This document shows, one piece after another, positions 2,587 through 26,738 of a DNA stretch of 64,000 bases (the stretch's first letter is position 1; each line of letters opens with the position of its first letter). A model generated the notes under the pieces. That model saw only the letters and a program-made list of their open reading frames with translations, did no database searches and was not told the origin of the DNA. The position numbers and the translations under genes are program-made. This DNA is from a virus (taxonomy: Duplodnaviria > Heunggongvirae > Uroviricota > Caudoviricetes): IMG/VR virus record IMGVR_UViG_3300042922_001018, one strand, 5' to 3'.

Positions 2587-4125
2587 ATGTCAACTGATTC
2601 CGTATGGGGCGGTGCTCCGTCCGCCGAGGCGTTCCCGCCCCCGCAGCAGCGAGAGCCGCACCCCGTTCAGGTTCCCACACCTGTTCCCCAGCAGGCCGTC
2701 CAGCCACAGCCGCTCACCAGGGCTGAACAGCGCCAGGCCGCAGCCTCGGTCGCGGCGCCTACCCCGGTTCCGGTGCCCGTCCCGGTCCCTCAGCCAGTCG
2801 CTCCTGACGCCGCGCCGCAGGCAGCTCCCGCAGCTCCTCAGCCCGTAGCTCCCCAGCCTGTCGCCGCCGCTCCTGCTCCGGTGGCAGCCCAGCCGCCGCA
2901 GCAGGTACAGCCGCTTCAGACGGTGAAGGTCGGAGAGGCCGCAGCGCGGTTCACGGAGGCACAGCTCGGTGGTGCGCGCGTGAAGTTCGAGCACATCATC
3001 GGTGTCGCGGCCGGTATGGGTGTCTCGGACATCCACATCGTTGGCGACTCGCCTCTTCGTGTGCAGAAGGCGGGTGCTGTTGTGACCATCGACGGCATCT
3101 ACGTCACGAACCAGGAAATCCTGATGTTCGTCGAGATGTACGGCAAGCAGCGCGGTGGTGCACACGAACTGGAACACGGCCGGAAGGGAACAGTCGAGTG
3201 TATGACGCAGGTCGGCGATGTCCGACTGCGTATGACGTACGTCCGCGAGGTTCACGGATTCGGCTGCACCGCTCGTATCGTGCCGGGTGACCCGCCCAGC
3301 ATCCACAGCGGCGTATTCGAGGACAACCCGATTCCGCAGAAGCTCATCGACATCACGATGGGCACCCGTGGCGGTGGCCTCATCATCGCAGAGGGACCGA
3401 CGGGTTCTGGTAAGACGACGCTCATCGCAGCTCTGCTGCGCGAGGTGAACGACAACCTCGAACGTCACATCTACACCATCGAAGACCCCATCGAGTTCTT
3501 GCACCGCTCGAACCGTTCGCTGGTTACCCAGCGCGAGGTCGGCGAGCACGCGGAGTCCATCCCGAGCGCTCTGCGTACTTCGCTGAGGTACAAGCCGCAC
3601 ATCATTCTCGTCGGTGAGCTTCTGGACCTGGAGACGGTCAAGGGCGCTATCGAAGCGGCGAACAAGGGTCACCTCATCTTCGCGACCTCGCACGCCTCGT
3701 CGGCGGAGGAAGGCGTCTCGGCGCTGGTGAACCAGTTCCCCGGTTCCGAGCAGAAGCAGATTCAGGTGGCCCTCTCGCAGGCGTTGAAGGCGGTCGTGGT
3801 GCAGCGACTCATCCCTCGTGTCGGCGGCGGTCTCGTACCGGCTCGTGAGCTTCTGCTGAACACCATCCCGGTGGCACTGAAGATTCGCGAGGGTAGCTTC
3901 CAGCAGCTCTCCCAGGCTATGAAGCCGACGGACAACATGTTCAAGTTCGAGAACGACCTGGCGCGCCTCATCCACGAGGGTCTGGTGGATGTCGAAGACG
4001 CGAAGCAGTTCGCGAACGACCGCAAGGAGCTGTACTCCAACGTGGACATGTACGTCCGCGAGCACGGCATGGACGCTCGCGTTCGTGAGCTGTTCACGGA
4101 TGACGAGAAGGGCATCGCGCGGTAA
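2587..4125 (+). CDS. pilT: PilT-family retraction ATPase with a Pro/Gln/Ala-rich N-terminal extension
   Basis: SDIHI, GPTGSGKTT, HIYTIEDPIEFLH, QREVGEH, ALRTSLRYKPHIILVGE, ATSH, PVALKIRE (AIRNLIRE-like); no Zn motif. Confidence 0.92.
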   Translation: MSTDSVWGGAPSAEAFPPPQQREPHPVQVPTPVPQQAVQPQPLTRAEQRQAAASVAAPTPVPVPVPVPQPVAPDAAPQAAPAAPQPVAPQPVAAAPAPVAAQPPQQVQPLQTVKVGEAAARFTEAQLGGARVKFEHIIGVAAGMGVSDIHIVGDSPLRVQKAGAVVTIDGIYVTNQEILMFVEMYGKQRGGAHELEHGRKGTVECMTQVGDVRLRMTYVREVHGFGCTARIVPGDPPSIHSGVFEDNPIPQKLIDITMGTRGGGLIIAEGPTGSGKTTLIAALLREVNDNLERHIYTIEDPIEFLHRSNRSLVTQREVGEHAESIPSALRTSLRYKPHIILVGELLDLETVKGAIEAANKGHLIFATSHASSAEEGVSALVNQFPGSEQKQIQVALSQALKAVVVQRLIPRVGGGLVPARELLLNTIPVALKIREGSFQQLSQAMKPTDNMFKFENDLARLIHEGLVDVEDAKQFANDRKELYSNVDMYVREHGMDARVRELFTDDEKGIAR

Positions 4126-10200: not shown

Positions 10201-11460
10201 TGCCGGGGAAGGCGTCCAGGCACCGTTGTTGATGCTCTGCTCGACGCGGTAACGGACTGCCTGAAGCGACGAGACCGGACCCCAGGAGAGGTTGTGCTCG
10301 TGCGGACGGGCCGAGTTCTCGGAACCGGCGAGGACCGGAGCAGGAAGCGTCTGCGTGTAGTTCACCGTGTCGGTGGACGTGGCGTTCGATACGCTCGGCG
10401 GGCAGGCGGCGACAACCGCGACCTGGCCGACGGAACCGTTCGGTACGCCTTCAATCTGGACAGGCTCGAATGCGCCGTAAGAGGTGAAGGTGACTTCGTG
10501 GTTCTCAGCGCCCGTGGTCGAGGTGACCCAACGGACGGTGTACTCCGTCGTGAACGGCCCACAGGTCACGTAGTCCCAGGTAATCTGGATACCTTCACGC
10601 ATGGAGCCATAGATGTCACCGTTGGTGGCGGAGCGCTCGACCCGGAGGTTGTTGATGGGTCCAGGGTTGTAGAGAGTCTGCTCCGGCTGCTCTTCGGGGT
10701 TGGTGAGCGTGTCACCTTCGGCCGTCGGAGTAATCCAAGTCTTGCCAGCGATGTCGGTCGGACGGGGACCGGTGAGCGGCATGGCAACCTGGGTCTCCGA
10801 GCCGTTGGCGCGAGAAATCTTCACCAGCGAAGGCTGGCTCCATTCCCACTCGTAGTCACGCCAGTAAGAGTCGCGAGTGGCGGTGGACTTCTGAGCCGCG
10901 GGGACAGTCGTGGACAGGCCCACTTCGAGACCGGAAGCGTTGTAGTGGAGGTCACGACCGGCAGAGTTCGATGCGACGAACACTGCGTCGGTCGCGAAGC
11001 CGTCCACCGAGATGGTCTTAGTGGTCGCGGCGGGGGTACCTGGCGATGTGCCGAGGTCACAGACTTCGTTGTTGAAGTACGAGACCGTGTTGCTCAGCAC
11101 TCCACCGTCGAGGGTCCAGACGCTCTTACGGCAGTCGTCACGGAATGAACCGCTGCCGCGCTGCTGGTAGACACCAGGGGACCGACCGGGTAGCTCATAG
11201 AAGATAGCCGTCTTGTCGCCTCGAAGGAAGACCTGAGACGAGTTGTTGGCGTCGAGCGACCACGCCTTGCTAGCCGTGGTGAGGTTCGCTGCGCGAGTCT
11301 GCTCGTCGGCGTACTTACCTACGAAGTTGAAGGTCGTGATGAGCACGGCGAAGATGGTCGCGCCCACAATCATGCTGCCGAACACAGCGATGATACTCAG
11401 GACGGGGTCAGTGGCCCCTCGCTCTGAGCGCAGGTGTGTGAGCAGTCTGTTCATCATCAT
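7285..11460 (-). CDS. giant pilin-anchored adhesin (~1390 aa) with ~9 Cys-paired Fn3-like repeats
   Basis: Prepilin-like leader LRSERG|ATDPVLSIIAVFG plus hydrophobic helix; repeats CPAGTxxEYRYR...WxxW...ARCxS. Confidence 0.8.
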   Translation of the reverse strand: MMMNRLLTHLRSERGATDPVLSIIAVFGSMIVGATIFAVLITTFNFVGKYADEQTRAANLTTASKAWSLDANNSSQVFLRGDKTAIFYELPGRSPGVYQQRGSGSFRDDCRKSVWTLDGGVLSNTVSYFNNEVCDLGTSPGTPAATTKTISVDGFATDAVFVASNSAGRDLHYNASGLEVGLSTTVPAAQKSTATRDSYWRDYEWEWSQPSLVKISRANGSETQVAMPLTGPRPTDIAGKTWITPTAEGDTLTNPEEQPEQTLYNPGPINNLRVERSATNGDIYGSMREGIQITWDYVTCGPFTTEYTVRWVTSTTGAENHEVTFTSYGAFEPVQIEGVPNGSVGQVAVVAACPPSVSNATSTDTVNYTQTLPAPVLAGSENSARPHEHNLSWGPVSSLQAVRYRVEQSINNGAWTPSPAISPNPKDGVTAQLTFDTGSTYGQNHRYRAIAVLPPVESNPSNIVTIQTPWPPIAAPTITGTNPTTASYQTTVSAITCPAGTSGQYQQRYRFGTSAWSAWTTWGTTRVMTTNVAEGARIQVNAQVRCAYNATQFSPTQAARNTAQWIRPIVTVPATPTVTFTDPSADADPVPANFVTTGCPAGTTPEYSYRYRLNEATSYTSFTSWSGDTSALIAILRGGRIEIEVKARCVSPYAQGPESPTNTETWIRPIPAPPGLTNLTTNDQGTAEPINNRIIHDAAVCPAGTTAEYRYRQTTPAPTGAWTTWAASPVGGPFYNVDTAWGRYYVWEAVARCISPYLASDPSPTRSTTWTTNLPLPSGNITLAAPSTTPMDIEYNVTIGGNSSCPAGTTIRYAMTGTNNALQNAGRAWFNSGWSTFETDKRSEPTRWNNLSVSHTAPKARANFYDASYVGYAVCDGPDRDASITNPLEALSTVPGPGQGLIRVNYPVVNNTATAERIRVDQGGSGNSTTLDNVFTYENCSGAGQWGESRFRYRINTTGAGNAWSGWSTWGDTAGRERYINNTRQNTTLPVLAGTSPRNLGDNRHLAVLYNVAQGHRLDVDVQHRCIDPYTQDSLNNKGPASAVEHRETVRNVENPTGMYLEQPFWSGVPNGTQRSVGIEANCSASTVGIQYQWRNDGAGGNTGVWQGWFNPNSGNGFRTGNITATWANWYGSSANYICVGVFANSGVEFRQTGGVQAEIPPAPGGVYLNVSGSNVDTWRGTVYTGTTVSTSGSWSASAGGGCPAGTNTQVDWASPTSQSASASRSSSSAGTYYSGWVTRSFGASVYCAANDNGTRGAGVGTGWQDRSVRVGANWEVPPYPGTPTGGSYDGSYMAALGGTDYGGYVVNTLRFNGSGGANANGYNNSVRIQGTVPRNGGTWTGWATQIGCFDGASSKQAQSQATNGWGSSGWFTTGATSVPTGIDRVNMGCF

Positions 11461-11495
11461 GATTGTATCACCCTGTAGGTAGGAACGCTGACGGA

Positions 11496-14400
11496 TTATC
11501 CGTATGCGCCAGCGGACCACTGGTATCCGCTGTTGGCGTACGGACCGGTGCACGTCGCGCGAGAGTTCCACTCGACGTAGCCCCAGCTACCACCCTGGTT
11601 GTTGTAGTCCCAGGCGGCACCTTCCCAGCGCCAGTTGGATGCCTTGTTCATCAGCATCCAGAAGTACGGGTCTGCGCCCCACGCACCGTTGTAGCAGTTG
11701 ATGCCGTGGTTGAAGTGACGGTAGCCTGCACGGCCACTCCACTTGCCACCAGCGCTGACGCCACGGACGTAGAAGCCATTGCTGCCGCCCAGTGTGGACT
11801 GGTTCGTAGCTGCACCGCGAGCGCCCGTGAGGTCGTTGTAGCACGTCGTCTGCACGTAGGTCTTCTGAGCGCGACCTTCTTCAGCCTGCGTACCCCGGCT
11901 CCGGTGGTTGCGGTCCCAGCCGGTCCAACCGCTGTCCATGTTACCCGGCTCCTTCGTCATGGAGCCTTCCCAGTTGACACGGTTGAACGAGCTGTAGTCG
12001 GTGACGGTGCCCGCGGGGCAGGCGTTGCCGTTGACAGTCCAGTTCGAGTTCAGGGAACCATCGTAGCCGATGTGGACGGTCGGGCCAGCGGGCATGTCGC
12101 GCATGCGAGCCTGCGCGGCATGTTCGACAACCGGGCCAGCGGCGCTGGAATACTGGTTGATGCATCGCGTAGCGACCTGCACGTCGAAGTAGTCACCGTG
12201 GTACCACGGGTTGCCGCCGAGCGTCTGAGCGCCGGGGTTGCCACCCCATGCACTCCATGCGCGAGTCCAGCCGCCTTCGTTCCGGTCAGACCAGACGCCG
12301 CTCTTCGTGCGGTACTGGTACTGCGGGCTGAGGCCGGTACCACAGGTGACATCGGTGAACTGGAAGGTCGCCCAGGTGGAGGTGTTCCAGGAGACGGTCG
12401 GCGAAGCGGTCGTCGCGGTAACCGGCGTGGTGAACGACACGACCGTGTACTGGTAGGTCGGGCCGGTCGAGTAGTCAGAGACGCAGCGGGCCTGAAGCTG
12501 CGCACGGGCAACGTCACCGTTCGACACTGCGTCGAAGGTGAAGTTCGGCAGGGTCGCTGCGAATGCGCCCCATGCAGCCCACGAATCGTTCATTCCGGTG
12601 CGCGAGGAGACGCGTGCGGTGGTCGTCGCGGGGCAGTTCGTGGGGTTGGAGTACGAGGCCACGGGCGGAGCACCAGCGATGACAGTCTTGCCACCGACGG
12701 TCGGCTGAGCCGTGATTTCGTAGATGTGCCAGTCGCCGGTCGATGCAGCGCTCGGGCCGACGAGGGTTGCATCGGTGCCCGAGACGCAACGCGCCTCAAC
12801 GTCGAACTGAACGCGCTCGCCCTGGTTGATGGGCGAGTTGGCGCCGTTGGCGGCTCCCCAGCCAGTCCAGTTGGACCATCCACCAGCGTTCATCTGGTAG
12901 CGGCTACGCGACTCCCAGGTGGTGCCGGTTGCACAGCCCGCCTTGACCCAGGTCGGTGCGCCGTTGGCGGCGTACGTGACGGTGGGCGCGGAGGGGATGG
13001 ACGTGACGGGGCGGACACGCTCGACAACCGACTCGTCCGAAGAGGGGCCGTAGAGCTGCGTGCCGTTACCGAGGCAGTTCGCGGTGGCAACGATACGGAC
13101 CTTGCCACCTTCGGGAACGGTCACGTTCCGGGTGAACTGGTTCGGCGAGATGTTCGTGTAGGTCTCACGAGTGACATCGTTGACCTGAGCGAGCCAGGTA
13201 TAGCGAGGGGTCGTGCCAGCGGGGCAGGTAACCTGACCGATGGTGAACTGGTTGAAGCCGCTCGCGAGCGTCAGGAGAGGAGCGTCGGGCTTCGTCGTGA
13301 CTGGCACGTTGAGGACCACGATGTCGGACTCCGGCGAACCCGGTCCCTGTACATACGGGGAAACGTAGCGCGACTGGCCCTGGCCTTCGACCTTAGAACC
13401 CTGGTCTACGGCGCGAGTGTCGATGCGGTTGGTCGTCCACGGACCGTAAGTCCATGTGTTGCCGCCGTTGACACGGACGCGGTAGCGGTACTCGGCCGTG
13501 AGGCCAGCGGTCGTAGCGGCAGTGGAGACGGTCGTGGTGACGGTGTTGGTTCCACCGATGGACACGGTCGGCTTGGTCGGCGCCGAAGTGATGGGGCGGT
13601 CGAGCTGAGCGCTAGCAGTTGCAGTCTGGTTACCGACAGCGAACTCAGAGGCACAGCGTGCACGCACCTGGAACTCGATACGAGCGCCTTCAAGAGCCTT
13701 CGTGTCGTGGGAGAGCACACCATCGGCCCAGGTCGTCCACGTGGTCCAGGTGCCCTCGTCAAGGCGCGTACGGTGCTGGTACTGAGGCGTGGTGCCGGTA
13801 CCGCAAGATACGGTGGTCCAGGAAGCGACGCCGGTCGGCGCGATGGTCAGCGTCGGGGCACCGGGAGGCGGCAGAATCGGGTGGGTGTACTCCGCGATTT
13901 CGGAAGCCGCGGTCGGGTCGGTGACGCCCATCGAGGTACGGCAACGCGCCATGGCCTGAACAGAAATCTTCTGGCCCTGGTTGATGTTCTGGTTGAAGGA
14001 CTTGCCTGCGGCCCATTCGCTCCATGCGGTCCACTCGCCGTTACCCATCTTGTAGCGGTAGCGGTACTCCGTCGAACCACCGTACTGGCAGTAGACATTC
14101 GAGAAGGTGGAGGTGGCGGTGTTTCCGGACGCGGTGATGTTCACGCTCGGCGGAATCGGAGGCGCGACAGAGGTGTAGTCACCACCGGGGGTCAGGTACT
14201 CGATGGAGTTCGGGTTCAGCTCCCACAGCGCGAGCGCGTCGAGGTTGTCATCAGAGTAGACCCATACCGGACGTCCCTGAGCGTCGAGACCGGTGAACAC
14301 ACCAGCGCCGGAGGGAACGAACTGGACACGGGCCTTCGCGGTAACGCCGAGAGCGTTGTCGGACTTACCTTCCATCTCGGCCGTGACTACACCGGATTCC

Positions 14401-14795
14401 GGGTTGACGGCGAAGAAGGTGACGTGGCTGTTCGCGCCGAGTTCTGGCGTGTTGCCGAACTGCGAGGTGGCCTCAGTCAGCCCTTCAGCATCCATGTACT
14501 GCCATTCCCGCGGGAAGTCAGAGTTCATCTGTCCGAGGACGTTGGATGCGAGCTGGTTGATGCTGGAGCGAACCTGCGCCTGCTGCGCGGTCGTGTAGTC
14601 GAGAGTCTGGCGGAAGAAGAACCACGACATCGAGACGATGAGCAGAGTGGTGACGACGAGCACCAGGATGAGGGCGTTCGAGAGCGCGCCTCGTTCGCTG
14701 TTACGTTCCAGGATGGTGCGACGACGTTCTACGAACGCGCGGATACGAGCGAGCGGGTTTCCCTGCTCGCTCATCGGCGACTTAGCGCTGCTCAT
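11496..14795 (-). CDS. large pilin-anchored adhesin (1099 aa) with ~9 Cys-paired Fn3-like repeats
   Basis: Leader RNSERG|ALSNALILVLVV; same repeat unit as the neighbouring gene. Confidence 0.8.
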   Translation of the reverse strand: MSSAKSPMSEQGNPLARIRAFVERRRTILERNSERGALSNALILVLVVTTLLIVSMSWFFFRQTLDYTTAQQAQVRSSINQLASNVLGQMNSDFPREWQYMDAEGLTEATSQFGNTPELGANSHVTFFAVNPESGVVTAEMEGKSDNALGVTAKARVQFVPSGAGVFTGLDAQGRPVWVYSDDNLDALALWELNPNSIEYLTPGGDYTSVAPPIPPSVNITASGNTATSTFSNVYCQYGGSTEYRYRYKMGNGEWTAWSEWAAGKSFNQNINQGQKISVQAMARCRTSMGVTDPTAASEIAEYTHPILPPPGAPTLTIAPTGVASWTTVSCGTGTTPQYQHRTRLDEGTWTTWTTWADGVLSHDTKALEGARIEFQVRARCASEFAVGNQTATASAQLDRPITSAPTKPTVSIGGTNTVTTTVSTAATTAGLTAEYRYRVRVNGGNTWTYGPWTTNRIDTRAVDQGSKVEGQGQSRYVSPYVQGPGSPESDIVVLNVPVTTKPDAPLLTLASGFNQFTIGQVTCPAGTTPRYTWLAQVNDVTRETYTNISPNQFTRNVTVPEGGKVRIVATANCLGNGTQLYGPSSDESVVERVRPVTSIPSAPTVTYAANGAPTWVKAGCATGTTWESRSRYQMNAGGWSNWTGWGAANGANSPINQGERVQFDVEARCVSGTDATLVGPSAASTGDWHIYEITAQPTVGGKTVIAGAPPVASYSNPTNCPATTTARVSSRTGMNDSWAAWGAFAATLPNFTFDAVSNGDVARAQLQARCVSDYSTGPTYQYTVVSFTTPVTATTASPTVSWNTSTWATFQFTDVTCGTGLSPQYQYRTKSGVWSDRNEGGWTRAWSAWGGNPGAQTLGGNPWYHGDYFDVQVATRCINQYSSAAGPVVEHAAQARMRDMPAGPTVHIGYDGSLNSNWTVNGNACPAGTVTDYSSFNRVNWEGSMTKEPGNMDSGWTGWDRNHRSRGTQAEEGRAQKTYVQTTCYNDLTGARGAATNQSTLGGSNGFYVRGVSAGGKWSGRAGYRHFNHGINCYNGAWGADPYFWMLMNKASNWRWEGAAWDYNNQGGSWGYVEWNSRATCTGPYANSGYQWSAGAYG

Positions 14796-16546
14796 TCTTC
14801 CCCTCCGCGCTGGGACGTGACGCCAGCCAGAACCTTCATCAGAGTCACATCCTTGACGAGCGCAGATTCGATGATGTCACCGTCCGCACTCCACACCCTA
14901 ATGTTAGCAGACCCACACTCGTTCAAGCGGTCGAGAGCTGGAACTTCGAGGCGCGCCCAGTACCAGTCGCGGCCAGAGGTGTCCTGCGACAGGTTGATGT
15001 TGTTCGTCGAGAGTGAACCGATGCCCAGGTTGGTCGAGCAGAACACGCCGATTTTCAGGTTCCGTGGTGCGGTGCTGCCGGTGTACTGGTAGGAGACGCG
15101 GAGGACGGTGTCCTTAATCAGGGCGGGGTCAATCTTGGCGATTTCGACGCTCGACGCGGTCGTCGTGGCACTGTTACGTCCGGTGGCAACCAGGCTGATG
15201 TCCGATGCCGTAATGGTCTTGGCCGGGCCACCTGTCTGGGTGACACGGATGATGAACCGACCGACAGCGGTTGGGGTCGCGATGGTGTGGTTCAACGCGA
15301 GAGGTACGCTCTCGGTGCCGATACCTGCGAGGTCGATGGTCTGGAGGATGGTTGCCGTGCCGCTAGTGCTCGGGGCGTACTCGACGGTGACGGTACCAGT
15401 TGCTCCAGCCACCTGAGCGGTAGCCTGAAGGCGCATGCCAACGGTGATGGCGTTGATGCCGGTCATCTGCGGGGACGCGATGTTGTAGCGGAGCCACTTG
15501 CCCGTGTTTCCGCCGTTGAACGTGACGACGCCGGTTGCCTGGTCGTAGGCAGCGTTGGTGGAAGTCTCGAACGTTGCCGGGGTCTTCAGGATGTTCTCGA
15601 CGGTCTTGATGAGAGTCACATCGTCTACTGCGACGCGGCAACCGCTACAGTTCGTCACACGAATGGCGAGACGATACTGACCGGCAGCGGCGGCGGTGGA
15701 CTCGCTCGCGATGGTGGACCATTCACGGCGGTTCGTGGAAGGACCGAACGTAGGAGCGTTCGTACCCGCCTGGAGGCCCACCTGGACGAGCGCGCTACCG
15801 GATACGACCCTGGCGAAGCCGGAGGCCTTCAGGCGGTCTGCTACGGCCGCAGCGATGGGCTGGCTGTACACGACAGTGTCGCCCTGGATGATGAGTTCCT
15901 GCGCACCTGTAGAACGAGGCGTGGACGTTCCGGTCACTGTGGCGACGGCGCCTCCGGCTTCGGTGCTCCAGTTCGTCTGGGCGGCGGCACCTTCGAAGTC
16001 ACCCGCTGTTGCGAGGTTGGTCGAAAGGTTCTCGTTGTTGATGTCGCGAACGGACACGGTGATGCCGCTCGGGAGGTTCGGACCGATGTCCGAAGGCGTT
16101 CCGACCACGGTGGAGGACAGCGAGAGGCAGCCCTTCGGGGTCTTGCCCGCTGAGTCGAGCGTGCCACAGGACATCGTCGGACGGTTCGCAAGGATGCCAC
16201 GAGGCGCGGTCACTCGCAGCGTGAAACCGTTCACCGACGGGTCGAAGAAGACCTCACGGGTGACCGGAACAGTACGTCCCGAAACCGTGACGTTGAACGT
16301 CGTGGGAGGCTGGTCCGTAATCTTGTTGTACGGGGTCTTCTCGAAGTTGACGATTTCCTGTTCGAGACGGGTTGTCAGGTCGGAGTTACTCTGAGCGAGA
16401 GAGCTGCCCGCGAGCATCGTTGTGATGGCGCCACCGATAATGACCATCGTGACCATCGTGAGGATGGATGCAGCAATGAGAGCAACGGGCGAGGCATCGC
16501 CTCGGTCGCTTCGAAGGTGGGAAAGCAGTCTACGCATCACGCTCAT
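14792..16546 (-). CDS. minor pilin-like protein with probable carbohydrate-binding (jelly-roll) domains
   Basis: Leader LRSDRG|DASPVALIAASIL; NLATAGDFE...W...VDDVTL resembles CBM4/9-type modules. Confidence 0.7.
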   Translation of the reverse strand: MSVMRRLLSHLRSDRGDASPVALIAASILTMVTMVIIGGAITTMLAGSSLAQSNSDLTTRLEQEIVNFEKTPYNKITDQPPTTFNVTVSGRTVPVTREVFFDPSVNGFTLRVTAPRGILANRPTMSCGTLDSAGKTPKGCLSLSSTVVGTPSDIGPNLPSGITVSVRDINNENLSTNLATAGDFEGAAAQTNWSTEAGGAVATVTGTSTPRSTGAQELIIQGDTVVYSQPIAAAVADRLKASGFARVVSGSALVQVGLQAGTNAPTFGPSTNRREWSTIASESTAAAAGQYRLAIRVTNCSGCRVAVDDVTLIKTVENILKTPATFETSTNAAYDQATGVVTFNGGNTGKWLRYNIASPQMTGINAITVGMRLQATAQVAGATGTVTVEYAPSTSGTATILQTIDLAGIGTESVPLALNHTIATPTAVGRFIIRVTQTGGPAKTITASDISLVATGRNSATTTASSVEIAKIDPALIKDTVLRVSYQYTGSTAPRNLKIGVFCSTNLGIGSLSTNNINLSQDTSGRDWYWARLEVPALDRLNECGSANIRVWSADGDIIESALVKDVTLMKVLAGVTSQRGGEE

Positions 16547-16626: not shown

Positions 16627-17172
16627 TTACGACTTGACGTTGTTGATGTCAGTGAGCAGTTGGCTTGCGCTGCGGCCGGAGGGGAGAACTGCTCTCAACC
16701 GGTCGTTCTCGTGGAGGATTTCGCTGCTCTCAGACGTACGGATGAACACTTCACCGTTACCCGAGTGGCTCACAGCAGTCCATCCGTTCGCGAATCCGCG
16801 GACAAGAAGAGTCGTGCCTTCCGTCGGGGTGAAAGCGATAGAAGAGTTCATAAGAGCCTTCTGCGCTGTCGTAGGGGTACCGAGGTTCGGTCCGAACACC
16901 AGCGTAGCATAGTTGCCGTCGTTCTCGGCCATGTACGCAGCTTGCGCCGTCGCGACGCGGTCAAGGTCGGCCTTCGCGTTCAGGTTGTGCGCGTTCCCGA
17001 TGAAGCCGCTGATGGCGAAGGAACCGCCCACGAGCAGGATGAGCGTGATAGCGATACCCGCGATGATGAGGATGGGGTCGGTGGCACCGCGCTCCTTGCG
17101 CAGGCGTGCGATTTCGGCCTTGCGGGCCTTCAGGTGTTCAAGCATGGAAATCTTTCGGGTTGGGAGTGTCAT
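16627..17172 (-). CDS. type IV pilin-like protein (copy 7)
   Basis: ERG|ATDPILIIAGIAITLILLVGG...AKADLDRVATAQAAY; ATGA overlap with the upstream pilin. Confidence 0.88.
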   Translation of the reverse strand: MTLPTRKISMLEHLKARKAEIARLRKERGATDPILIIAGIAITLILLVGGSFAISGFIGNAHNLNAKADLDRVATAQAAYMAENDGNYATLVFGPNLGTPTTAQKALMNSSIAFTPTEGTTLLVRGFANGWTAVSHSGNGEVFIRTSESSEILHENDRLRAVLPSGRSASQLLTDINNVKS

Positions 17173-17699
17173 GAGCGGATGTCCGCAATGTCGGTCATCA
17201 CGGCGTTCCAGGTGATACCTGATGGCATCAGTACGCCAGCGGCTTCGTTCGTAGCGGGCGTAGTCGCTGGAATAGCGACGATGTTGGACGACACTGACGT
17301 ACGCAGAAACACAGTTCCCGAGGCGGAGAGCGTTACTGCCACCCAGCCGGAACTGGAGACACGAGCGCGCGAGGTACTCCCAGCGGTCGGCGTGAATCCA
17401 ATGGACGAGTTCTGAAGCTGGGTGTTCTGACCCGATGCATTCGGCCCAACCGCAAGGACCGCGTAACGGTCGTTCTCGGCGAGGTACGCAGCTTGCGCAG
17501 TCGCCATGCGGTCAAGGTCACCCTTGGCGTTCAAGTCGTTTGCATTGCCGATGAAACCGGAGATGGCGAAGGAACCGCCCACGAGCAGGATGAGCGTGAT
17601 AGCGATACCCGCGATGATGAGGATGGGGTCGGTTGCACCGCGCTCTTCACACAGGCGCGCGATTTCGGCCTTGCGAGCCTTCAGCTTGTCAAGCATCAT
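17169..17699 (-). CDS. type IV pilin-like protein (copy 6)
   Basis: Same conserved leader and helix; divergent C-terminus. Confidence 0.88.
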   Translation of the reverse strand: MMLDKLKARKAEIARLCEERGATDPILIIAGIAITLILLVGGSFAISGFIGNANDLNAKGDLDRMATAQAAYLAENDRYAVLAVGPNASGQNTQLQNSSIGFTPTAGSTSRARVSSSGWVAVTLSASGTVFLRTSVSSNIVAIPATTPATNEAAGVLMPSGITWNAVMTDIADIRS

Positions 17700-18202
17700 G
17701 ACCTCACGTTGTTGATGTCGGAGAGAAGCTGGGTAGCCGTAAGACCATCAGGAAGTACGACGTTTCCTCTGTCGGCCGATTCGTAAATCTGGCTCTGCGC
17801 AGAGCTACGGATGAATACCTTGCCAGAAGCAGAGTGTGTCACCGCCACCCAGCCGCTAGCGGTGAATCGGACGATGAACGTGTTCCCGGAAGTTGGCCGG
17901 AAGCCGATGGAAGAGTTCTCCAGGGCCAGGACGGGTGTGTTGATGTTCGGCCCAGAGACGTAGGTGGCGTAGGTGTCGTTCTCGGCGAGGTACGCAGCCT
18001 GGGCGGTCGCGACACGGTCGAGGTCACCCTTCGCGTTCAGGTCATTCGCGTTCGCAATGAAACCGCTGATAGCAAAGGAACCACCGACGAGGAGGATAAG
18101 GGTGATGGCGATACCCGCGATGATGAGGATGGGGTCAGTGGCGCCGCGCTCCTCACGCAGGCGCGCGATTTCGGCCTTCTTGGCCTTCAGTGCGTCAAGC
18201 AT
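17696..18202 (-). CDS. type IV pilin-like protein (copy 5)
   Basis: Same conserved leader and helix; divergent C-terminus. Confidence 0.88.
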   Translation of the reverse strand: MLDALKAKKAEIARLREERGATDPILIIAGIAITLILLVGGSFAISGFIANANDLNAKGDLDRVATAQAAYLAENDTYATYVSGPNINTPVLALENSSIGFRPTSGNTFIVRFTASGWVAVTHSASGKVFIRSSAQSQIYESADRGNVVLPDGLTATQLLSDINNVRS

Positions 18203-18298: not shown

Positions 18299-18826
18299 TC
18301 AGAGCGCGTTGATGGCGGTGAGAACTGCGGTGGCGAACGTGGTGTTCGCCGCGGCGTTGCCAGCGTTCGGCAGCACCAGCGTGCCCGGAAGGGCCGCGAT
18401 GTTGTTGCCCTGCGAGCCGACCTCGATGATGGCCGTGCCGGACGAGGTGCGCGCGTAGCGGGTGCCCGACGCGGACTCGGTGACAGCGACCCATCCGCCG
18501 GAAGCGGTCGGGGTGGTCAGGATGGTGAGCGAGTTGCCCGCGGTCGGCGTGAAGCCGATGGACGAGCTGCCCAGCGTCGCAACGTTGTTCGAGTAGGAGT
18601 CGCGCTCGGCGAGGAACGCGGCCTGAGCGGTCGCGACGCGGTCGAGGTCACCCTTGGCGTTCAGGTTGTTCGCGTTCGCGATGAAGCCGGAGATGGCGAA
18701 GGAGCCACCAACGAGCAGGATGAGGGTAATCGCGATACCCGCGATGATGAGGATGGGGTCAGTTGCTCCCCGCTCCTCGCGGAGGCGTGCGATTTCGGCC
18801 TTCTTGGCCTTCAGCTTGTCAAGCAT
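18299..18826 (-). CDS. type IV pilin-like protein (copy 4)
   Basis: Start MLDKLKAKK at 18826 with AAGGA RBS; conserved N-terminus. Confidence 0.9.
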   Translation of the reverse strand: MLDKLKAKKAEIARLREERGATDPILIIAGIAITLILLVGGSFAISGFIANANNLNAKGDLDRVATAQAAFLAERDSYSNNVATLGSSSIGFTPTAGNSLTILTTPTASGGWVAVTESASGTRYARTSSGTAIIEVGSQGNNIAALPGTLVLPNAGNAAANTTFATAVLTAINAL

Positions 18827-19004: not shown

Positions 19005-19520
19005 TTACGGGATGGCGACAACCGCGTCGCGGACCTGCGTCGCGGTGATGCCGGTCGGGAGCGTCAGCGTGCCACCGACGTAGGCGACGGTCGCGGTGGC
19101 ACCGGTACCGGTCACGTTGGCGTCGAGGACGGTCGTGGAAGCGGAGGTACGGACGTACTTCTGTCCGGAGGCCGACTTCGTGACGGCGACCCAGCCGGTG
19201 CTGCCGCTGGCGAGGATGGTGATGGGGTTGCCCGCGGTCGGCGTGAAGCCGATGGACGAGCTGCCCAGCGTGGTGACGCTGTTCGAGTAGGTGTCACGCT
19301 CGGCGAGGAACGCGGCCTGGGCGGTCGCGATGCGGTCGAGGTCACCCTTCGCGTTCAGGTTGTTCGCGTTCGCGATGAAGCCGCTGATGGCGAACGAGCC
19401 ACCCACGAGCAGGATGAGGGTGATGGCGATACCCGCGATGATGAGGATGGGGTCCGTTGCACCGCGCTCTTCGCGGAGGCGTGCGATTTCGGCCTTCTTG
19501 GCCTTCAGCTTGTCAAGCAT
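19005..19520 (-). CDS. type IV pilin-like protein (copy 3)
   Basis: Start MLDKLKAKK at 19520; conserved N-terminus. Confidence 0.9.
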   Translation of the reverse strand: MLDKLKAKKAEIARLREERGATDPILIIAGIAITLILLVGGSFAISGFIANANNLNAKGDLDRIATAQAAFLAERDTYSNSVTTLGSSSIGFTPTAGNPITILASGSTGWVAVTKSASGQKYVRTSASTTVLDANVTGTGATATVAYVGGTLTLPTGITATQVRDAVVAIP

Positions 19521-19713: not shown

Positions 19714-20208
19714 TTACAGCGCGCCGAACGCGGTGGCCACGTTCGCTGCGTTGATGCCGGTCGGCAGGGTGCCGGGCACGGACTCGGTGATGGTCGTCGA
19801 GGCCGAGGTACGGACGTACTTCGTACCCGAAGCCGACTTGGTCATGGCGACCCAGCCGCTCGGCGACGCGAAGAGGCGGATGGGGTTGCCCGCGGTCGGC
19901 GTGAAGCCGATGGACGAACCGCTCAGGGCGGTCAGCGCGGTGGCCTGGGTGTAGGTGCCGACACCTTCACCCGCGTAGGAGTCACGCTCGGCGAGGAACG
20001 CGGCCTGGGCGGTCGCGATGCGGTCGAGGTCACCCTTCGCGTTCAGGTTGTTCGCGTTCGCGATGAAGCCGCTGATGGCGAAGGAGCCACCGACGAGCAG
20101 GATGAGCGTGATGGCGATACCCGCGATGATGAGGATGGGGTCGGTTGCACCGCGCTCTTCGCGGAGGCGTGCGATTTCGGCCTTCTTGGCCTTCAGCTTG
20201 TCAAGCAT
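19714..20208 (-). CDS. type IV pilin-like protein (copy 2)
   Basis: Start MLDKLKAKK at 20208; conserved N-terminus. Confidence 0.9.
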   Translation of the reverse strand: MLDKLKAKKAEIARLREERGATDPILIIAGIAITLILLVGGSFAISGFIANANNLNAKGDLDRIATAQAAFLAERDSYAGEGVGTYTQATALTALSGSSIGFTPTAGNPIRLFASPSGWVAMTKSASGTKYVRTSASTTITESVPGTLPTGINAANVATAFGAL

Positions 20209-20377: not shown

Positions 20378-20935
20378 TTAGCCAGCGGTGCGGATGTCAG
20401 TGACGATGGCCTGGACTGCGGCCAGGTCGATGCCCGTCGGGTACGTCAGAGCCGGGGAGATGGTGGTTCCCGATGCTCCAGCCGAGGCGATGGTGGTGCC
20501 GGTGGAGCTGCGTACGAAGACTTCGCCCGAGTTCGAGCGAGTCACAGCGACCCAACCCGAGTTGTTGGTGCCCACGACGACCTTGGTGCTGTTGCCAGCG
20601 GTCGGCGTGAAGCCGATGGAAGAAGTCTGGAGCTGGGTGTTGGCCTGGACGCCCGCGGTGGCGGAGTCTGCGTCCACGTTCGGTCCTACGACGAGGACTC
20701 CGTAGCCGTCCTTCTCGGCGAGGAATGCGGCCTGGGCAGTCGCGATGCGGTCGAGGTCACCCTTCGCGTTGAGGTTGTTCGCGTTCGCGATGAAGCCGGA
20801 GATGGCGAAGGAGCCACCAACGAGCAGGATGAGGGTAATGGCGATACCCGCGATGATGAGGATGGGGTCCGTTGCACCCCGCTCATCACGCAGACGCGCG
20901 ATTTCGGCCTTCTTGGCCTTCAGCTTGTCAAGCAT
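20378..20935 (-). CDS. type IV pilin-like protein (copy 1)
   Basis: MLDKLKAKKAEIARLRDERG|ATDPILIIAG... Confidence 0.9.
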   Translation of the reverse strand: MLDKLKAKKAEIARLRDERGATDPILIIAGIAITLILLVGGSFAISGFIANANNLNAKGDLDRIATAQAAFLAEKDGYGVLVVGPNVDADSATAGVQANTQLQTSSIGFTPTAGNSTKVVVGTNNSGWVAVTRSNSGEVFVRSSTGTTIASAGASGTTISPALTYPTGIDLAAVQAIVTDIRTAG

Positions 20936-21055: not shown

Positions 21056-21850
21056 TTAGAAGATGACGCCCAGTTCCTCGGGTGTGGGTGCGTACATCTG
21101 GCCGAAGTACGGGATGGCGATGACGGCAATGACGGTCGCCAACGCCAGGAAGATGCCGAAGGGGACGCCTGTGTCTCCACCCGCGTTCTTGCGGATGCTC
21201 TTGAACAGCGCGCGCAGCAAGGTCCAGACGGTGCTGGTAAGGAAGGCGAGGAAGAGCCACGCGACGACGGCCAGTGCGCCCACGAGCCAGACAGCTCCCA
21301 TGTCACTCGGATTGTCCGGCGAGATGATGGGCGTACCGTACGCAATGCCGAGGGAACCCACCCAGAACGCCAGCGATGGCGCCAGCTTCACATCCCCCAT
21401 GCCCATCTGCTTCGCGAACAGGAACGAGAGGACGAGGAACACTACGCCGACGGCAAGTGCAATGGCCGCGCCGACGAGGAGGGAGATGACCCAGTGTTCC
21501 GTCTCGTACATGAGAGAGAAGGGGAGCACGACGAGCGAGAAGACGGCCGTGTAGCCCGTCAAGACGTTCGGCAGCGTGCGGTAGTAGTAGTCGGTCGCGG
21601 CGAATAGCGCCAGCAGTCCGAAGAGACCTGCGATAGCCGGAATGAGCGTGTACGCCCCGGTCAGGAACGCGGCCAGAGCTGCGGCGAGACCTGCTACTGT
21701 GCCCATGAGGGGCAGGTTGATGACGTGCTCCGGGTCACGAGGCTTGACGGCGTAGCGTCCAGCGAACACCGTGTGGAGCCAGGCAAACACGGCAGCAGCC
21801 ACAACGGCGGCAAGGAGTATCCAGTCGAACTCAGCAGTCATGACCATCAT
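21056..21850 (-). CDS. pilD: prepilin peptidase (A24 family), apparently without the Zn/methylase domain
   Basis: Multi-TM; first Asp in ATDYYYRTLPN; GMGDVKL; VPFGIFL; no CxxC pairs. Confidence 0.88.
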   Translation of the reverse strand: MMVMTAEFDWILLAAVVAAAVFAWLHTVFAGRYAVKPRDPEHVINLPLMGTVAGLAAALAAFLTGAYTLIPAIAGLFGLLALFAATDYYYRTLPNVLTGYTAVFSLVVLPFSLMYETEHWVISLLVGAAIALAVGVVFLVLSFLFAKQMGMGDVKLAPSLAFWVGSLGIAYGTPIISPDNPSDMGAVWLVGALAVVAWLFLAFLTSTVWTLLRALFKSIRKNAGGDTGVPFGIFLALATVIAVIAIPYFGQMYAPTPEELGVIF

Positions 21851-22859: not shown

Positions 22860-22874
22860 AGCCCGACTGTAACA

Positions 22875-25313: not shown

Positions 25314-26738
25314 TCATACTTCCGTCAAACCAAGGAACATATCGTAAATTGGCAGGTACGTGGACACGATGACCAGGACCATGATGAGACCCACGGCGCC
25401 GTTCGCGATAGGCTGGAGAGCCGTGGTGAGGTTCTCCGTGCGCTTGTGCGCTTCACGTCGGTAGAAGTCGGTGAGGTTCGCGAGCGCCTTGATTTCAGAA
25501 CCGGAGTCGAAACCGTTGCGCATGATGAAGCCAGCGGACGGCGGGATGAGGTAGCCGTCGGCGACGCCTGCGAAGTCGGAAGTACCGTTGTCCATGCGGC
25601 GGATGTGCGCGAGAAGGTGGTACTTGTACGCGGCGTTCGAGGAGGCTTCCGCAGCCGTCTTCAGTGCCTCGCGGTCGGACATACCGACTTCGAGGAGACC
25701 TGACAGGATGGAGAACACCTGGACGAGACGCTGCGACTGGAGCACCTTACCGAGGATGGGCACCTTCACGCTCATCCGGCCCAGCTTCATGCGAAGCCGC
25801 TCGTTGTAACGTCCCCAGAACTTGTAGTAGATGAACCACGAGATGCCCGAGACGATGGCGATAGCACCGACCCAGATGAGGCCCGTTCCGAGGTCCATGA
25901 CGAACTGAGACAGCGGCGGAAGCGGCTTGCCGAGGGACTCGAACATGTCCGCGAACACCGGCAGAACGAACAGGATGACCGCGTAGAGGAACAGGATGAT
26001 GACCGTGAAGAGGATGATGGGCTGCATGGTCGCGGACTTGATTTTCTGCTTCAAGTCCTGGCCTTCCAGCATGATTTCCGCGCCCTTCTTCAGGTTCACG
26101 GCCTCCGCACCGGACTGGGCACCAACGTGCAGAAGGTCCGCCACGATGCGAGGGAAAATCTTCTCCTCCTCGCGCATAGCGGCGGAGAACGACTTCTGAC
26201 CAGACGCGACAAGCTGGTACATGCGGGCGTAGGCGTTGCCCAGCTCGGTCTTCTTGTACTGCTCTGCCAGCGTCGCGAGCGGCCGTGTCTCACCACGGGC
26301 CGTTTCGAGCATTAGAGCGAGGATGCGGAGGGACTCCGCTACCTCAACCGGCTTGACGTTCTTGTCGAACTCCAGCCATTGCGGGCGGCGGGAAACCTTC
26401 TCCTTGACGGGACGCGCAGCCTTCTCGATGAGTTCGCGGAGAATCTTGTCCTGCTGCGCCTTCTGCGAGGCTTCGCGAGCTTCCAGCTTCTCGCGGTTCT
26501 TCTCCGAGGTCTTGCGCTGCTTCTCCAGACCGGCGCGTTCGCGAGCGAGCTGAGCCTCGGTCTGGACCTTCGGCTGCTTGGCAGCTTCGGTGTCGCGCTT
26601 GCCCTGTTCCTTCTGGTTTCGGGCGCGCTCCTTCTCCATCCGAGCCTGCTCTTTTGCGAACTCCTTGTCGCGCTTCGCCTGCTCCTTAGGGGACAGGTCG
26701 GAAACGACTCCGGGCGGGGTGTCCGGGTTAAGCGTCAT
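25314..26738 (-). CDS. pilC: PilC/GspF-family pilus platform protein
   Basis: Two T2SSF repeats; IKSATMQP-TM-VLPVFADMF..LP.LS; KVPILG; C-terminal LQP...TYLPIY. Confidence 0.9.
   Translation of the reverse strand: MTLNPDTPPGVVSDLSPKEQAKRDKEFAKEQARMEKERARNQKEQGKRDTEAAKQPKVQTEAQLARERAGLEKQRKTSEKNREKLEAREASQKAQQDKILRELIEKAARPVKEKVSRRPQWLEFDKNVKPVEVAESLRILALMLETARGETRPLATLAEQYKKTELGNAYARMYQLVASGQKSFSAAMREEEKIFPRIVADLLHVGAQSGAEAVNLKKGAEIMLEGQDLKQKIKSATMQPIILFTVIILFLYAVILFVLPVFADMFESLGKPLPPLSQFVMDLGTGLIWVGAIAIVSGISWFIYYKFWGRYNERLRMKLGRMSVKVPILGKVLQSQRLVQVFSILSGLLEVGMSDREALKTAAEASSNAAYKYHLLAHIRRMDNGTSDFAGVADGYLIPPSAGFIMRNGFDSGSEIKALANLTDFYRREAHKRTENLTTALQPIANGAVGLIMVLVIVSTYLPIYDMFLGLTEV

What the first reader, a model, noticed from the sequence alone, without database searches (positions are those of the whole stretch)
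20810..20935. Non-canonical class III signal: G|ATDPILI, no Glu5, archaeal-like pattern
Seen: after the basic leader ...ERG the mature pilins begin ATDPILIIAGIAITLILL, with Asp3/Pro4 and no Phe1 or Glu5. The minor pilins begin ATDPVL, ALSNAL and DASPVA. The peptidase lacks the CxxC Zn/methylase region. Known: bacterial T4a pilins use G|FTLIE, and haloarchaeal pilins use AVSPVIGVILMVAITVIL. Inference: a PilT-powered bacterial pilus built from unmethylated, archaeal-pattern pilins that standard N-methyl HMMs would miss; possibly an undescribed type IV filament subtype orthogonal to host pili.
Basis: partly seen in the sequence, partly recalled or inferred. Interest (0 to 1): 0.8.

Follow-up and report, generated by a model that had tools for sequence, protein, structure and literature searches.

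The report
Megaplasmid type IV pilins without Phe1/Glu5
A giant actinobacterial plasmid-like element encodes a retractable type IV pilus whose ten subunits carry an undescribed signal (…[D/E]-R-G|A-T-D-P…) lacking the Phe1, Glu5 and N-methylation features thought near-universal in bacterial pilins. The pilin fold and assembly machinery are bacterial, not archaeal.

Summary
Bases 20810-20935 (minus strand) encode residues 1-42 of the first of seven tandem pilin paralogs: a 20-residue basic leader ending ERG, then ATDPILIIAGIAITLILLVGG. Three large downstream subunits carry ERG|ATDPVL, DRG|DASPVA and ERG|ALSNAL. The adjacent A24 peptidase has both catalytic Asp motifs, no Cys and no methyltransferase domain.

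The motif defines a family: 268 clusters among 1.84 billion representatives. No member tested matches Pfam N_methyl, archaeal Pilin_N, TadE or Flp.

The archaeal reading is not supported:
- The predicted fold is a bacterial type IVa pilin (Z 10.1 to Thermus PilA4).
- The second half of the long N-terminal helix (α1) is homologous to ordinary chromosomal Microbacteriaceae pilins (hhalign 92.5%).
- PilB, PilT and PilC are type IVa-like.

Relatives are confined to Microbacteriaceae megaplasmids. In Curtobacterium pusillum AA3 the chromosome carries a standard type IVa pilus (G|FTLIE pilins, bifunctional PilD), and the plasmid carries this variant.

Leaderless relatives start within one residue of the predicted mature N-terminus, which supports cleavage after Gly20. 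Cleavage, lack of methylation and filament formation remain untested.

I found no description in the literature searched. The scan earlier noted a related leaderless, Glu5-less megaplasmid pilus on other DNA (e1-5353431). Verdict: a new variant of a known kind, of moderate to high interest.

The parts
20876..20935 (-). Leader peptide of pilin 1 (residues 1-20, MLDKLKAKKAEIARLRDERG), predicted amphipathic helix ending in Gly(-1)
   Evidence: helix 2-19; family logo
20810..20875 (-). Predicted mature N-terminus ATDPILIIAGIAITLILLVGGS, the first (hydrophobic) half of helix α1: Asp3, Pro4, Gly20-Gly21
20378..20935 (-). Pilin paralog 1 (185 aa)
   Evidence: AF2 pLDDT 89.3, type IVa pilin fold
19714..20208 (-). 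Pilin paralog 2
19005..19520 (-). Pilin paralog 3
18299..18826 (-). Pilin paralog 4
17696..18202 (-). Pilin paralog 5
17169..17699 (-). Pilin paralog 6
16627..17145 (-). Pilin paralog 7
14792..16546 (-). 584-aa subunit with DRG|DASPVA signal (minor or tip pilin candidate)
   Evidence: homologue in Curtobacterium plasmids
11496..14795 (-). 1099-aa subunit with ERG|ALSNAL signal
7285..11463 (-). About 1390-aa subunit with ERG|ATDPVL signal
21056..21850 (-). A24 aspartic prepilin peptidase, peptidase-only (Asp87, Asp153; no Cys; no A24_N_bact)
25314..26738 (-). PilC/GspF-type platform protein (two T2SSF domains)
1353..2510 (+). PilB/GspE-type assembly ATPase, short form with CxxC...CxxC motif
2587..4125 (+). 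PilT-type retraction ATPase with a 130-aa Pro/Ala/Gln-rich N-terminal extension

Best explanation
The region encodes the signal and assembly helix of a divergent bacterial type IV pilin family (the 'ATDP pilins'). The family belongs to a type IVa-like, PilT-equipped pilus system carried on giant Microbacteriaceae plasmid-like elements.

Proposed mechanism:
1. Each prepilin is inserted in the membrane by its 22-residue hydrophobic segment, with the conserved basic leader (…L-R-x-[D/E]-R-G) in the cytoplasm.
2. The dedicated peptidase-only A24 enzyme (Asp87/Asp153) cuts after Gly20. Ala1 becomes the new, unmethylated N-terminus.
3. PilB and PilC polymerise the subunits through the invariant first half of helix α1. 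Asp3 probably replaces Glu5 as the buried charge partner of the neighbouring subunit's N-terminal amine. Gly20-Gly21 probably serve as the helix-melting hinge.
4. PilT retracts the fibre.
5. Seven paralogs share the assembly helix and display different heads. Three large subunits with the same type of signal are probably tip adhesins.

Shown here: sequence, conservation, fold prediction, machinery homology, synteny and taxonomic range. Inferred: cleavage site, lack of methylation, the role of Asp3, filament formation and retraction.
For: - Signal present in 10 proteins of the cluster and invariant among the 7 paralogs, under purifying selection.
- Family of 268 clusters at E<=1e-3, with a sharp logo around the site.
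- AF2 model: pLDDT 89.3, pTM 0.75, α1 helix spanning residues 24-75 plus a 4-stranded sheet.
- Best structural matches are all bacterial pilins: Thermus PilA4 6xxd (Z 10.1, rmsd 2.7, 117 aligned), PilE 4noa (Z 8.6), Shewanella pilin (Z 8.5), Myxococcus PilA 8tj2 (Z 7.0, 23% identity). The chains' residue 1 aligns near model residues 18-22.
- hhalign against canonical Microbacteriaceae pilins: probability 92.5%, E 4.7e-7, over the second half of α1.
- Protein-language-model and structure neighbours are actinobacterial N_methyl pilins.
- Leaderless relatives begin M-A-N-P-F-L-V, aligned to (A)-T-D-P-I-L-I. Their translation start therefore falls within one residue of the predicted mature N-terminus.
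- Peptidase: PF01478 only, invariant ATDYYYRxLPN and GMGDVK motifs, no Cys.
- Machinery: PilB with a tetracysteine motif, best PDB match Myxococcus PilB 8.6e-47. PilT best match Aquifex PilT 1.7e-55, TIGR01420 261 bits. PilC best match Myxococcus PilC 3.5e-18.
- The gene set PilC, peptidase, pilins, large subunits, PilT, PilB is syntenic in three Curtobacterium megaplasmids.
- In C. pusillum AA3 the bifunctional PilD (PF06750, 127 bits) and the G|FTLIE pilins are chromosomal, while the plasmid A24 enzymes lack PF06750.
- Peptidase plus prepilin(1-75) co-fold, weak support only: ipSAE 0.34 against a best control of 0.00. That mark was reached by 58 of 80 solved complexes and 2 of 110 mismatches. 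At 0.60 or below it was reached by only 7 of the 80 and by both passing mismatches. Runs agree in at least 94% of contacts, and partner pLDDT is at least 74.
Against: - There are no experimental data on processing, methylation or piliation.
- No PilM/N/O homologue was detected among the cluster ORFs scanned, so the machinery is minimal or incomplete.
- pilC, the peptidase gene and pilB/pilT are separated by unrelated genes in this window.
- Foldseek gave no significant PDB hit (best E 0.46, PAK pilin). A sequence profile finds no solved pilin.
- hhalign homology covers only 35 columns.
- Leaderless relatives have no acidic residue near the N-terminus, so Asp3 may not be essential for assembly.
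- The host of this window is unknown, so orthogonality to host pili is shown only for a relative's host.
Confidence: 0.72

Rival explanations
1. The pilins, or their signal and peptidase module, are of archaeal origin: a horizontally acquired archaeal-type pilus subunit set run by bacterial ATPases.
For: Two family members give a faint hit to DUF7262 (E 0.26).
Against: No PF07790 match in 43 members at E<=10, nor on the Curtobacterium plasmid. The best structural matches are bacterial pilins and no archaeal pilin is among the 50 listed. The second half of α1 is homologous to actinobacterial chromosomal pilins. Nearest neighbours of both pilin and peptidase are actinobacterial. ATPases and platform are PilB/PilT/PilC-like.
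Confidence: 0.05
2. The system is a chimera: a type IVa pilus that adopted a Tad (type IVc)-style processing module. The leader and cleavage site co-evolved with a TadV-like peptidase-only enzyme, which explains the loss of Phe1, Glu5 and methylation.
For: The chromosomal Tad pilins of C. pusillum have the leaders …LRDDRG|SATAEY and …GERG|SVSVEF, very close to …LREERG|ATDP. The canonical type IVa pilin of the same genome has …EEKEKG|FTLIE. TadV-type enzymes lack the PilD N-terminal region (PMC3244431, read).
Against: A profile of the window's peptidase family hits the syntenic plasmid enzymes (1e-8, 6.8e-6) and, faintly, chromosomal PilD (0.062), but not the Tad-linked A24 candidates. The Atlas structure search aligns residues 2-255 with PilD-like proteins that carry A24_N_bact (TM 0.65). 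The enzyme could therefore be a PilD that lost its methylase loop. There is no Flp motif, no TadE match and no TadA/B/C.
Confidence: 0.25
3. These proteins are not pilins in function. They are N-terminally anchored or Sec-secreted surface proteins, with the hydrophobic segment acting as a signal anchor or as a signal peptide cut by signal peptidase I (for example at A-N-A near residue 52).
For: No canonical pilin HMM matches. An A-x-A triplet follows the hydrophobic segment in this window's copies.
Against: The A-x-A triplet is not conserved in the family (TNG, NNS and GNA variants). The hydrophobic segment continues into one uninterrupted 52-residue helix, as in pilins. The [GA](-1) and +1 to +4 positions are the most conserved in the protein. 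The genes are always linked to an A24 peptidase, PilB, PilC and PilT.
Confidence: 0.05

Closest known systems
Monoderm type IVa pili (Streptococcus sanguinis, Clostridium; chromosomal pil loci of Microbacteriaceae such as C. pusillum AA3)
   Same: PilB with a tetracysteine motif, PilT and a single PilC. Pilins of 150-190 aa with long leaders and the lollipop fold. Several major-type pilin paralogs and large modular minor pilins. The second half of α1 is homologous.
   Different: The mature N-terminus is A-T-D-P, not F-T-L-I-E. There is no PF07963 match. The peptidase lacks the A24_N_bact/methyltransferase region. No PilM/N/O was detected. The system is plasmid-borne.
Tad/Flp (type IVc) pili of Actinobacteria
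   Same: Peptidase-only A24 enzyme. Leader ending [D/E]-R-G followed by Ala/Ser-x-Thr. No N-methylation expected.
   Different: Flp pilins are 40-70 aa and carry Glu5-Tyr6. Tad systems have TadA, TadB and TadC and no PilT. None of these is found here.
Archaeal type IV pili (e.g. haloarchaeal PilA paralogs with a shared hydrophobic domain)
   Same: No Glu5 and no methylation. Pro near position 3-4. Several paralogs share an identical hydrophobic domain.
   Different: No Pilin_N match. The predicted head fold resembles bacterial type IVa pilins. The ATPases and platform are bacterial PilB/PilT/PilC types.
Plasmid-borne type IVb thin pili of IncI plasmids (R64, TP114)
   Same: A type IV pilus encoded by a large plasmid, with variable adhesin subunits. 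In TP114 the pilus adhesins set conjugation specificity (abstract of PMC9045228, seen).
   Different: Those are type IVb systems of Proteobacteria with canonical Glu5 pilins and shufflon-varied PilV. No conjugation link is shown here, apart from an FtsK/SpoIIIE gene next to the cluster on pS16.
Leaderless, Glu5-less megaplasmid pilins noted earlier in this scan (e1-5353431)
   Same: My profile search recovers leaderless M-A-N-P-F-L-V pilins as relatives (E 4e-13 to 2e-8). They align from the predicted mature N-terminus onward.
   Different: The window's family keeps a conserved 9-33 residue leader and a dedicated peptidase.

Membership tests
Bacterial type IV pilin (class III signal, IPR012902 / PF07963 N_methyl) | Hydrophilic leader ending in Gly, followed by about 21 hydrophobic residues | tested here: met
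   Leader of 20 aa ending in Gly20. Position -1 is G 73% / A 27% in 110 relatives. 22 uncharged residues follow Pro4.
Bacterial type IV pilin (class III signal, IPR012902 / PF07963 N_methyl) | Match to the N_methyl motif (Phe/Met at +1, Glu at +5) | tested here: not met
   0 of 43 members match PF07963 at E<=10. +1 is Ala and +5 is Ile. The sequence fails the PilFind rule [GAS]-x4-[DE] given in PMC3244431.
Bacterial type IV pilin (class III signal, IPR012902 / PF07963 N_methyl) | Lollipop fold: α1 helix of about 50 residues packed on an antiparallel β-sheet | tested here: met
   AF2 pLDDT 89.3, helix 24-75 plus 4 strands. Z 10.1 / rmsd 2.7 / 117 aligned to PilA4 6xxd, and many other pilins at Z 5-8.6.
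Bacterial type IV pilin (class III signal, IPR012902 / PF07963 N_methyl) | Cleavage by a prepilin peptidase and N-methylation of residue 1 | not testable with these tools
   Indirect evidence only: adjacent A24 peptidase, leaderless relatives starting at the predicted site, a weak co-fold score, and no methyltransferase domain.
Type IVa pilus system | PilB-type assembly ATPase, PilT retraction ATPase and PilC platform in one conserved gene set | tested here: met
   Synteny with three Curtobacterium plasmids. The PilT TIGR01420 score of 261 bits is below the 319 cut-off.
Type IVa pilus system | Bifunctional PilD (A24_N_bact/methyltransferase plus A24) | tested here: not met
   Only PF01478 matches and there is no Cys. 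By contrast, chromosomal PilD of C. pusillum scores 127 bits on PF06750.
Type IVa pilus system | PilM/PilN/PilO alignment proteins | tested here: inconclusive
   No Pfam match among the cluster and neighbouring ORFs scanned. Divergent or distant genes are not excluded.
Archaeal type IV pilin (PF07790 Pilin_N) | Match to the Pilin_N N-terminal domain model | tested here: not met
   No match in the window protein or in 43 relatives. No match on the Curtobacterium plasmid.
Archaeal type IV pilin (PF07790 Pilin_N) | Archaeal-type pilin head fold | tested here: inconclusive
   No archaeal pilin is among the 50 listed structural matches, which are dominated by bacterial pilins. Absence from a list does not exclude a family.
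Tad/Flp (type IVc) pilins | Flp motif (G|xxxxEY) in a 40-70 aa pilin, or a TadE N-terminal domain | tested here: not met
   No PF07811 or PF04964 match. The proteins are 165-185 aa with a globular head.
Tad/Flp (type IVc) pilins | Peptidase-only A24 enzyme (TadV type) | tested here: met
   Phylogenetic affinity to TadV or to PilD is unresolved.

The most novel reading that the evidence does not exclude
This is the first bacterial type IVa-class, PilT-retracted pilus whose major subunits lack N-methyl-Phe1 and Glu5. It uses a dedicated non-methylating peptidase and an Asp3/Pro4 N-terminus. It belongs to a wider undescribed clade, which includes leaderless pilins, carried by giant actinobacterial extrachromosomal elements. 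It works insulated from the host's own chromosomal type IVa pilus, possibly to bring cells together for spread of the element.
Probability: 0.45. Interest if true: 0.75.

Novelty: new variant of a known kind. Interest (0 to 1): 0.62.

Why it matters
Glu5 and the Gly|Phe-methyl N-terminus are treated as the signature of bacterial type IV pilins. They are central to current assembly models (charge neutralisation in the filament core) and to every detection tool (PF07963, PilFind).

A conserved family of type IVa-fold pilins that drops all three features, yet keeps PilB, PilC and PilT, is a natural experiment on which features are truly required. It also shows that pilus surveys undercount such systems.

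The same cell can hold a canonical chromosomal pilus and this plasmid variant. That makes the specificity of peptidase-pilin and pilin-pilin recognition directly testable. The location on 450-600 kb elements with tRNA arrays raises the question of what a pilus does for such an element.

Tried and rejected
- Foldseek against the PDB gave no hit at E<=0.001; the best was PAK pilin at E 0.46. The VIA-align wide search was needed.
- A profile search of PDB sequences with the family alignment found only chance hits.
- Pfam and NCBIfam on the pilins gave nothing except a faint Myxococcus PilA helix match (E 0.009, 16 bits) and Pilin_GH (3 of 43 members, E 0.008).
- The archaeal Pilin_N model run on the Curtobacterium genome gave only sub-threshold chromosomal hits.
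- Pairwise phmmer of the peptidase against the Curtobacterium A24 enzymes was too weak to build a tree. A family profile ranked the syntenic plasmid enzymes first and PilD a distant third, so the peptidase's origin stays open.
- No whole genome is held for this window, so the host's own pili could not be examined. A relative's host was used instead.
- Phage identity of the element: Terminase_6N and HK97 capsid models found nothing in the C. pusillum genome and plasmid. tblastn of the pilin against 50,697 phage records found nothing.
- A link to conjugation was considered. No FtsK/SpoIIIE homologue was seen among the window ORFs I scanned; one lies next to the cluster on pS16 only.
- I ran no further search on the large subunits, because only two homologues were available for an alignment.

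Full report
**What is there.** The finding lies on the minus strand. The ORF at 20378-20935 encodes a 185-aa protein, and its first 42 codons are exactly bases 20810-20935. They read a 20-residue, lysine/arginine-rich leader ending ERG, followed by ATDPILIIAGIAITLILLVGGS. Six further paralogs follow head to tail (16627-20208) with the same leader and N-terminal 75 residues and divergent C-terminal halves. A six-frame scan for 'charged residue, G/A/S, then a 20-residue uncharged stretch' finds ten such signals in the cluster. They are the seven pilins plus three large proteins beginning ERG|ATDPVL (about 1390 aa), ERG|ALSNAL (1099 aa) and DRG|DASPVA (584 aa).

**Is it more than chance?** Across the seven paralogs, the N-terminal 71 codons are 84-98% identical in DNA. 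Third codon positions are only 63-94% identical, while the protein is almost invariant. That is purifying selection on the leader and helix, not merely recent duplication. A word-index search found 68 relatives. An exhaustive profile search of 1.84 billion cluster representatives found 268 at E<=1e-3 and 64 at E<=1e-30. In 110 unique N-termini the logo is L-R-x-[D/E]-R-[G 73% / A 27%] | A-T-D-P-I-L-[V/I]-I-A-[G/A]-I-A-…-L-L-V-G-G, with leaders of 9-33 residues. Asp3 and Pro4 were fixed by my search pattern there, but they are at least 90% conserved in the unbiased 43-sequence alignment.

**What the protein is.** With that alignment AlphaFold2 gives a confident model: pLDDT 89.3, pTM 0.75. It has a leader helix, one uninterrupted 52-residue helix (residues 24-75), a four-stranded antiparallel sheet and a C-terminal helix. 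Foldseek found nothing significant; its best hit was full-length PAK pilin at E 0.46. The exhaustive VIA-align search of 48,161 chains put bacterial pilins at the top:
- Thermus PilA4 6xxd: Z 10.1, rmsd 2.7 Å, 117 of 125 residues aligned.
- Pseudomonas PilE: Z 8.6.
- Shewanella pilin: Z 8.5.
- TTHA1222: Z 8.3.
- Neisseria PilV: Z 7.6.
- Myxococcus PilA: Z 7.0, 23% identity.
- Also PulG, EpsG and the S. sanguinis pilus.

Residue 1 of the full-length chains aligns to model residues 13-22. No archaeal pilin appears among the 50 rows. That does not exclude one, but the fold is clearly the bacterial type IVa/T2SS pilin fold. The Atlas look-up agrees. After the protein's own cluster, 27 of 30 feature neighbours are actinobacterial clusters carrying PF07963, and the structural neighbours are N_methyl pilins.

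**Why databases miss it.** Neither the window protein nor any of 43 relatives matches PF07963 (N_methyl), PF07790 (archaeal Pilin_N), TadE or Flp at E<=10. NCBIfam gives only a 16-bit match to the helix of Myxococcus PilA. A family profile finds no solved pilin by sequence. The PilFind rule [GAS]-[uncharged]4-[DE] (PMC3244431) fails, because Asp sits at +3 and Ile at +5. All named relatives are annotated 'hypothetical protein'.

**The machinery.**
- The neighbouring 264-aa protein (21056-21850) matches only Peptidase_A24. Its ATDYYYRxLPN (Asp87) and GMGDVK (Asp153) motifs are invariant in ten homologues. It has no cysteine and no A24_N_bact domain, which is the region holding the CxxC pairs and methyltransferase activity in PilD. 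Its feature neighbours are actinobacterial A24-only proteins.
- PilC (25314-26738) has two T2SSF domains and matches Myxococcus PilC.
- On the other strand, a 385-aa PilB/GspE-type ATPase carries a CxxC…CxxC motif. Its best PDB match is Myxococcus PilB at 8.6e-47.
- A 512-aa PilT follows. It matches Aquifex PilT at 1.7e-55 and scores 261 bits on the PilT/PilU model, and it has a variant of the AIRNLIRE box.
- No PilM/N/O homologue was detected.

The system is therefore type IVa-like in its motors, platform and pilin fold, but it has a peptidase-only processing enzyme.

**Where it occurs.** tblastn finds the pilin in no phage record. Among plasmids it occurs only in three Curtobacterium megaplasmids of 546-607 kb, with 7-9 copies each. 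A pattern scan of one genome per 185,579 species finds only pCPAA3 of C. pusillum AA3 and an uncultured Microbacterium MAG. The rest are metagenomic contigs of up to 395-637 kb. On pS16 and pCPAA3 the gene order is pilC, pilin-like gene, peptidase, pilins, three larger subunits, then pilT and pilB. Identities to the window's proteins are PilC 55%, PilT 53%, PilB 59%, pilins 42-50% and large subunits 26-32%. The window also carries 36 tRNA genes, a tmRNA and an SRP RNA. This resembles pCPAA3, which the literature notes for its tmRNA (PMC10832533). The window therefore very probably belongs to a Microbacteriaceae giant plasmid-like element. No paper I found describes its pilus.

**The informative comparison.** The chromosome of C. 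pusillum AA3 has an ordinary type IVa pilus locus next to rpoC and fusA. Its pilins match N_methyl (42 bits) and read …EEKEKG|FTLIELLVVV. It has a PilB with an MshEN domain, and a PilD scoring 127 bits on A24_N_bact. The two A24 genes on the plasmid lack that domain. So in one cell the canonical signal goes with the bifunctional enzyme, and the ATDP signal goes with the peptidase-only enzyme. Profile-profile comparison of the ATDP family with 26 canonical Microbacteriaceae pilins gives 92.5% probability (E 4.7e-7) over the second half of α1: …NA.[D/N].NAK.DL..I.TAQ.A…. Extrapolated without gaps, the ATDP mature end is one residue longer than the canonical one. Asp3 then lies about one helical turn before the position of Glu5. 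The family thus looks like a derivative of actinobacterial type IVa pilins whose first few residues and processing enzyme changed together.

**The cleavage site.** Three observations support cutting after Gly20.
1. Conservation peaks at positions -3 to +6, with only G or A at -1.
2. The profile search recovered relatives with no leader at all. They begin M-A-N-P-F-L-V, M-H-P-F-I-I or M-P-N-P-Y-V-V, and these align with (A)-T-D-P-I-L-I. Their translation start therefore falls within one residue of the predicted mature end.
3. A co-fold of the peptidase with prepilin residues 1-75 gave weak support. The score was 0.34 against a best control of 0.00. That mark was reached by 58 of 80 solved complexes and 2 of 110 mismatches. 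At 0.60 or below it was reached by only 7 of the 80 and by both passing mismatches. The runs agree in at least 94% of contacts, and partner pLDDT is at least 74.

None of this replaces N-terminal sequencing.

**The archaeal and Tad resemblances.** The short pattern A-x-[D/S]-P-hydrophobic, the absence of Glu5 and the non-methylating peptidase do recall archaeal pilins. Every test of actual relationship pointed to Bacteria instead. A closer look-alike of the leader is the host's own Tad system. C. pusillum Flp and TadE read …LRDDRG|SATAEY and …GERG|SVSVEF. This suggests a type IVa pilus that adopted a Tad-style processing logic. However, the peptidase profile scores PilD faintly and the Tad-linked enzymes not at all. 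Its predicted structure superposes on PilD-like proteins over residues 2-255. A PilD that lost its methylase loop is therefore equally possible. I leave this open at about 25% for the Tad-module version.

**Mechanism proposed.**
1. Prepilins insert with the leader in the cytoplasm (inferred).
2. The A24 enzyme cuts after Gly20 (inferred, supported as described above).
3. Ala1 stays unmethylated because no methyltransferase domain is present (inferred).
4. PilB and PilC polymerise subunits through the invariant helix. Asp3 is the likely partner of the neighbouring N-terminal amine, and Gly20-Gly21 occupy the place of the Pro22 hinge (inferred from established type IV pilus structures).
5. PilT retracts the fibre (inferred from homology and conserved linkage).
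6. Seven heads on one stalk sequence and three large signal-bearing subunits suggest mixed or switchable fibres with tip adhesins.

The biological role is unknown. Adhesion, aggregation that favours spread of the element, and DNA uptake are all possible. The only hint of conjugation is an FtsK/SpoIIIE gene beside the cluster on pS16.

**Verdict.** This is a new variant of a known kind of machine. The scan has already met a related leaderless, Glu5-less megaplasmid pilus on other DNA (e1-5353431). My profile search links the two groups independently.

Noticed in passing
window 33334-36645 (-): Adjacent homologues of the phage T4 RIIA (806 aa, phrog_612 E 6e-64) and RIIB (286 aa, phrog_609 E 3e-51) lysis-inhibition proteins on what otherwise looks like a megaplasmid. 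Whether the element is a plasmid, a phage-plasmid or a huge phage is open. Terminase_6N and HK97 capsid models found nothing in the related C. pusillum genome and plasmid.
   Followed up: partly
window 49966-63943 (-): Array of 36 tRNA genes with a tmRNA (61315-61701, tag ANATRNDLALAA) and a small SRP RNA (58412-58503), all on one strand.
   Followed up: partly
window 38635-40964 (-): A dATP/dGTP diphosphohydrolase N-terminal domain protein (PF18909, E 2e-36), a family I recall from phage 2-aminoadenine (Z-genome) DNA pathways. It lies directly downstream of a UvrD-like helicase.
   Followed up: no
window 2587-2980 (+): The PilT homologue carries a 130-residue Pro/Ala/Gln/Val-rich low-complexity N-terminal extension that is absent from solved PilT proteins.
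   Followed up: no
window 5265-7140 (+): Three paralogous lipoproteins of about 200 aa (lipobox LAGC / LTAC / ITGC) with no family match lie between pilT and the large pilin-like subunits. A fourth lipoprotein-like ORF lies at 4165-4686.
   Followed up: no
window 21850-25314 (-): In this window pilC and the peptidase gene are separated by inserted genes: a DUF4379 treble-clef zinc-finger/REase-like protein (23612-25270), a 211-aa surface protein with a C-terminal membrane anchor (22923-23558) and a YunG-family protein (22186-22593). The same insertion is present in a related 395-kb metagenomic contig but not in the Curtobacterium plasmids.
   Followed up: partly
proteins P0155-P0214; locus L014: A sister subfamily has the signal D-x-[A/G]|E-N-S-I-M-Q-T-I-[ST]-I-A-V-S-A-I-L-I-A-A-G-L (33 of the listed hits). 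Many are 300-650 aa bimodular pilins. One lies on a 637-kb metagenomic contig full of unannotated genes.
   Followed up: partly
L001 (Curtobacterium sp. MCSS17_016 plasmid pS16) 33650-40552: The same plasmid carries a second type IV filament-like cluster (three T2SS/T4P ATPase genes, a T2SSF gene, a second prepilin peptidase) about 9 kb from the ATDP cluster. An FtsK/SpoIIIE gene lies divergent from pilC.
   Followed up: no
L016 (C. pusillum AA3 chromosome) 10169-17872: A canonical type IVa pilus locus (N_methyl pilins, PilB with MshEN, a PilT-like ATPase, bifunctional PilD nearby) sits between the rpoC and fusA/rpsG regions. Earlier scan notes on Microcella and Microbacterium reported the same location.
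   Followed up: partly
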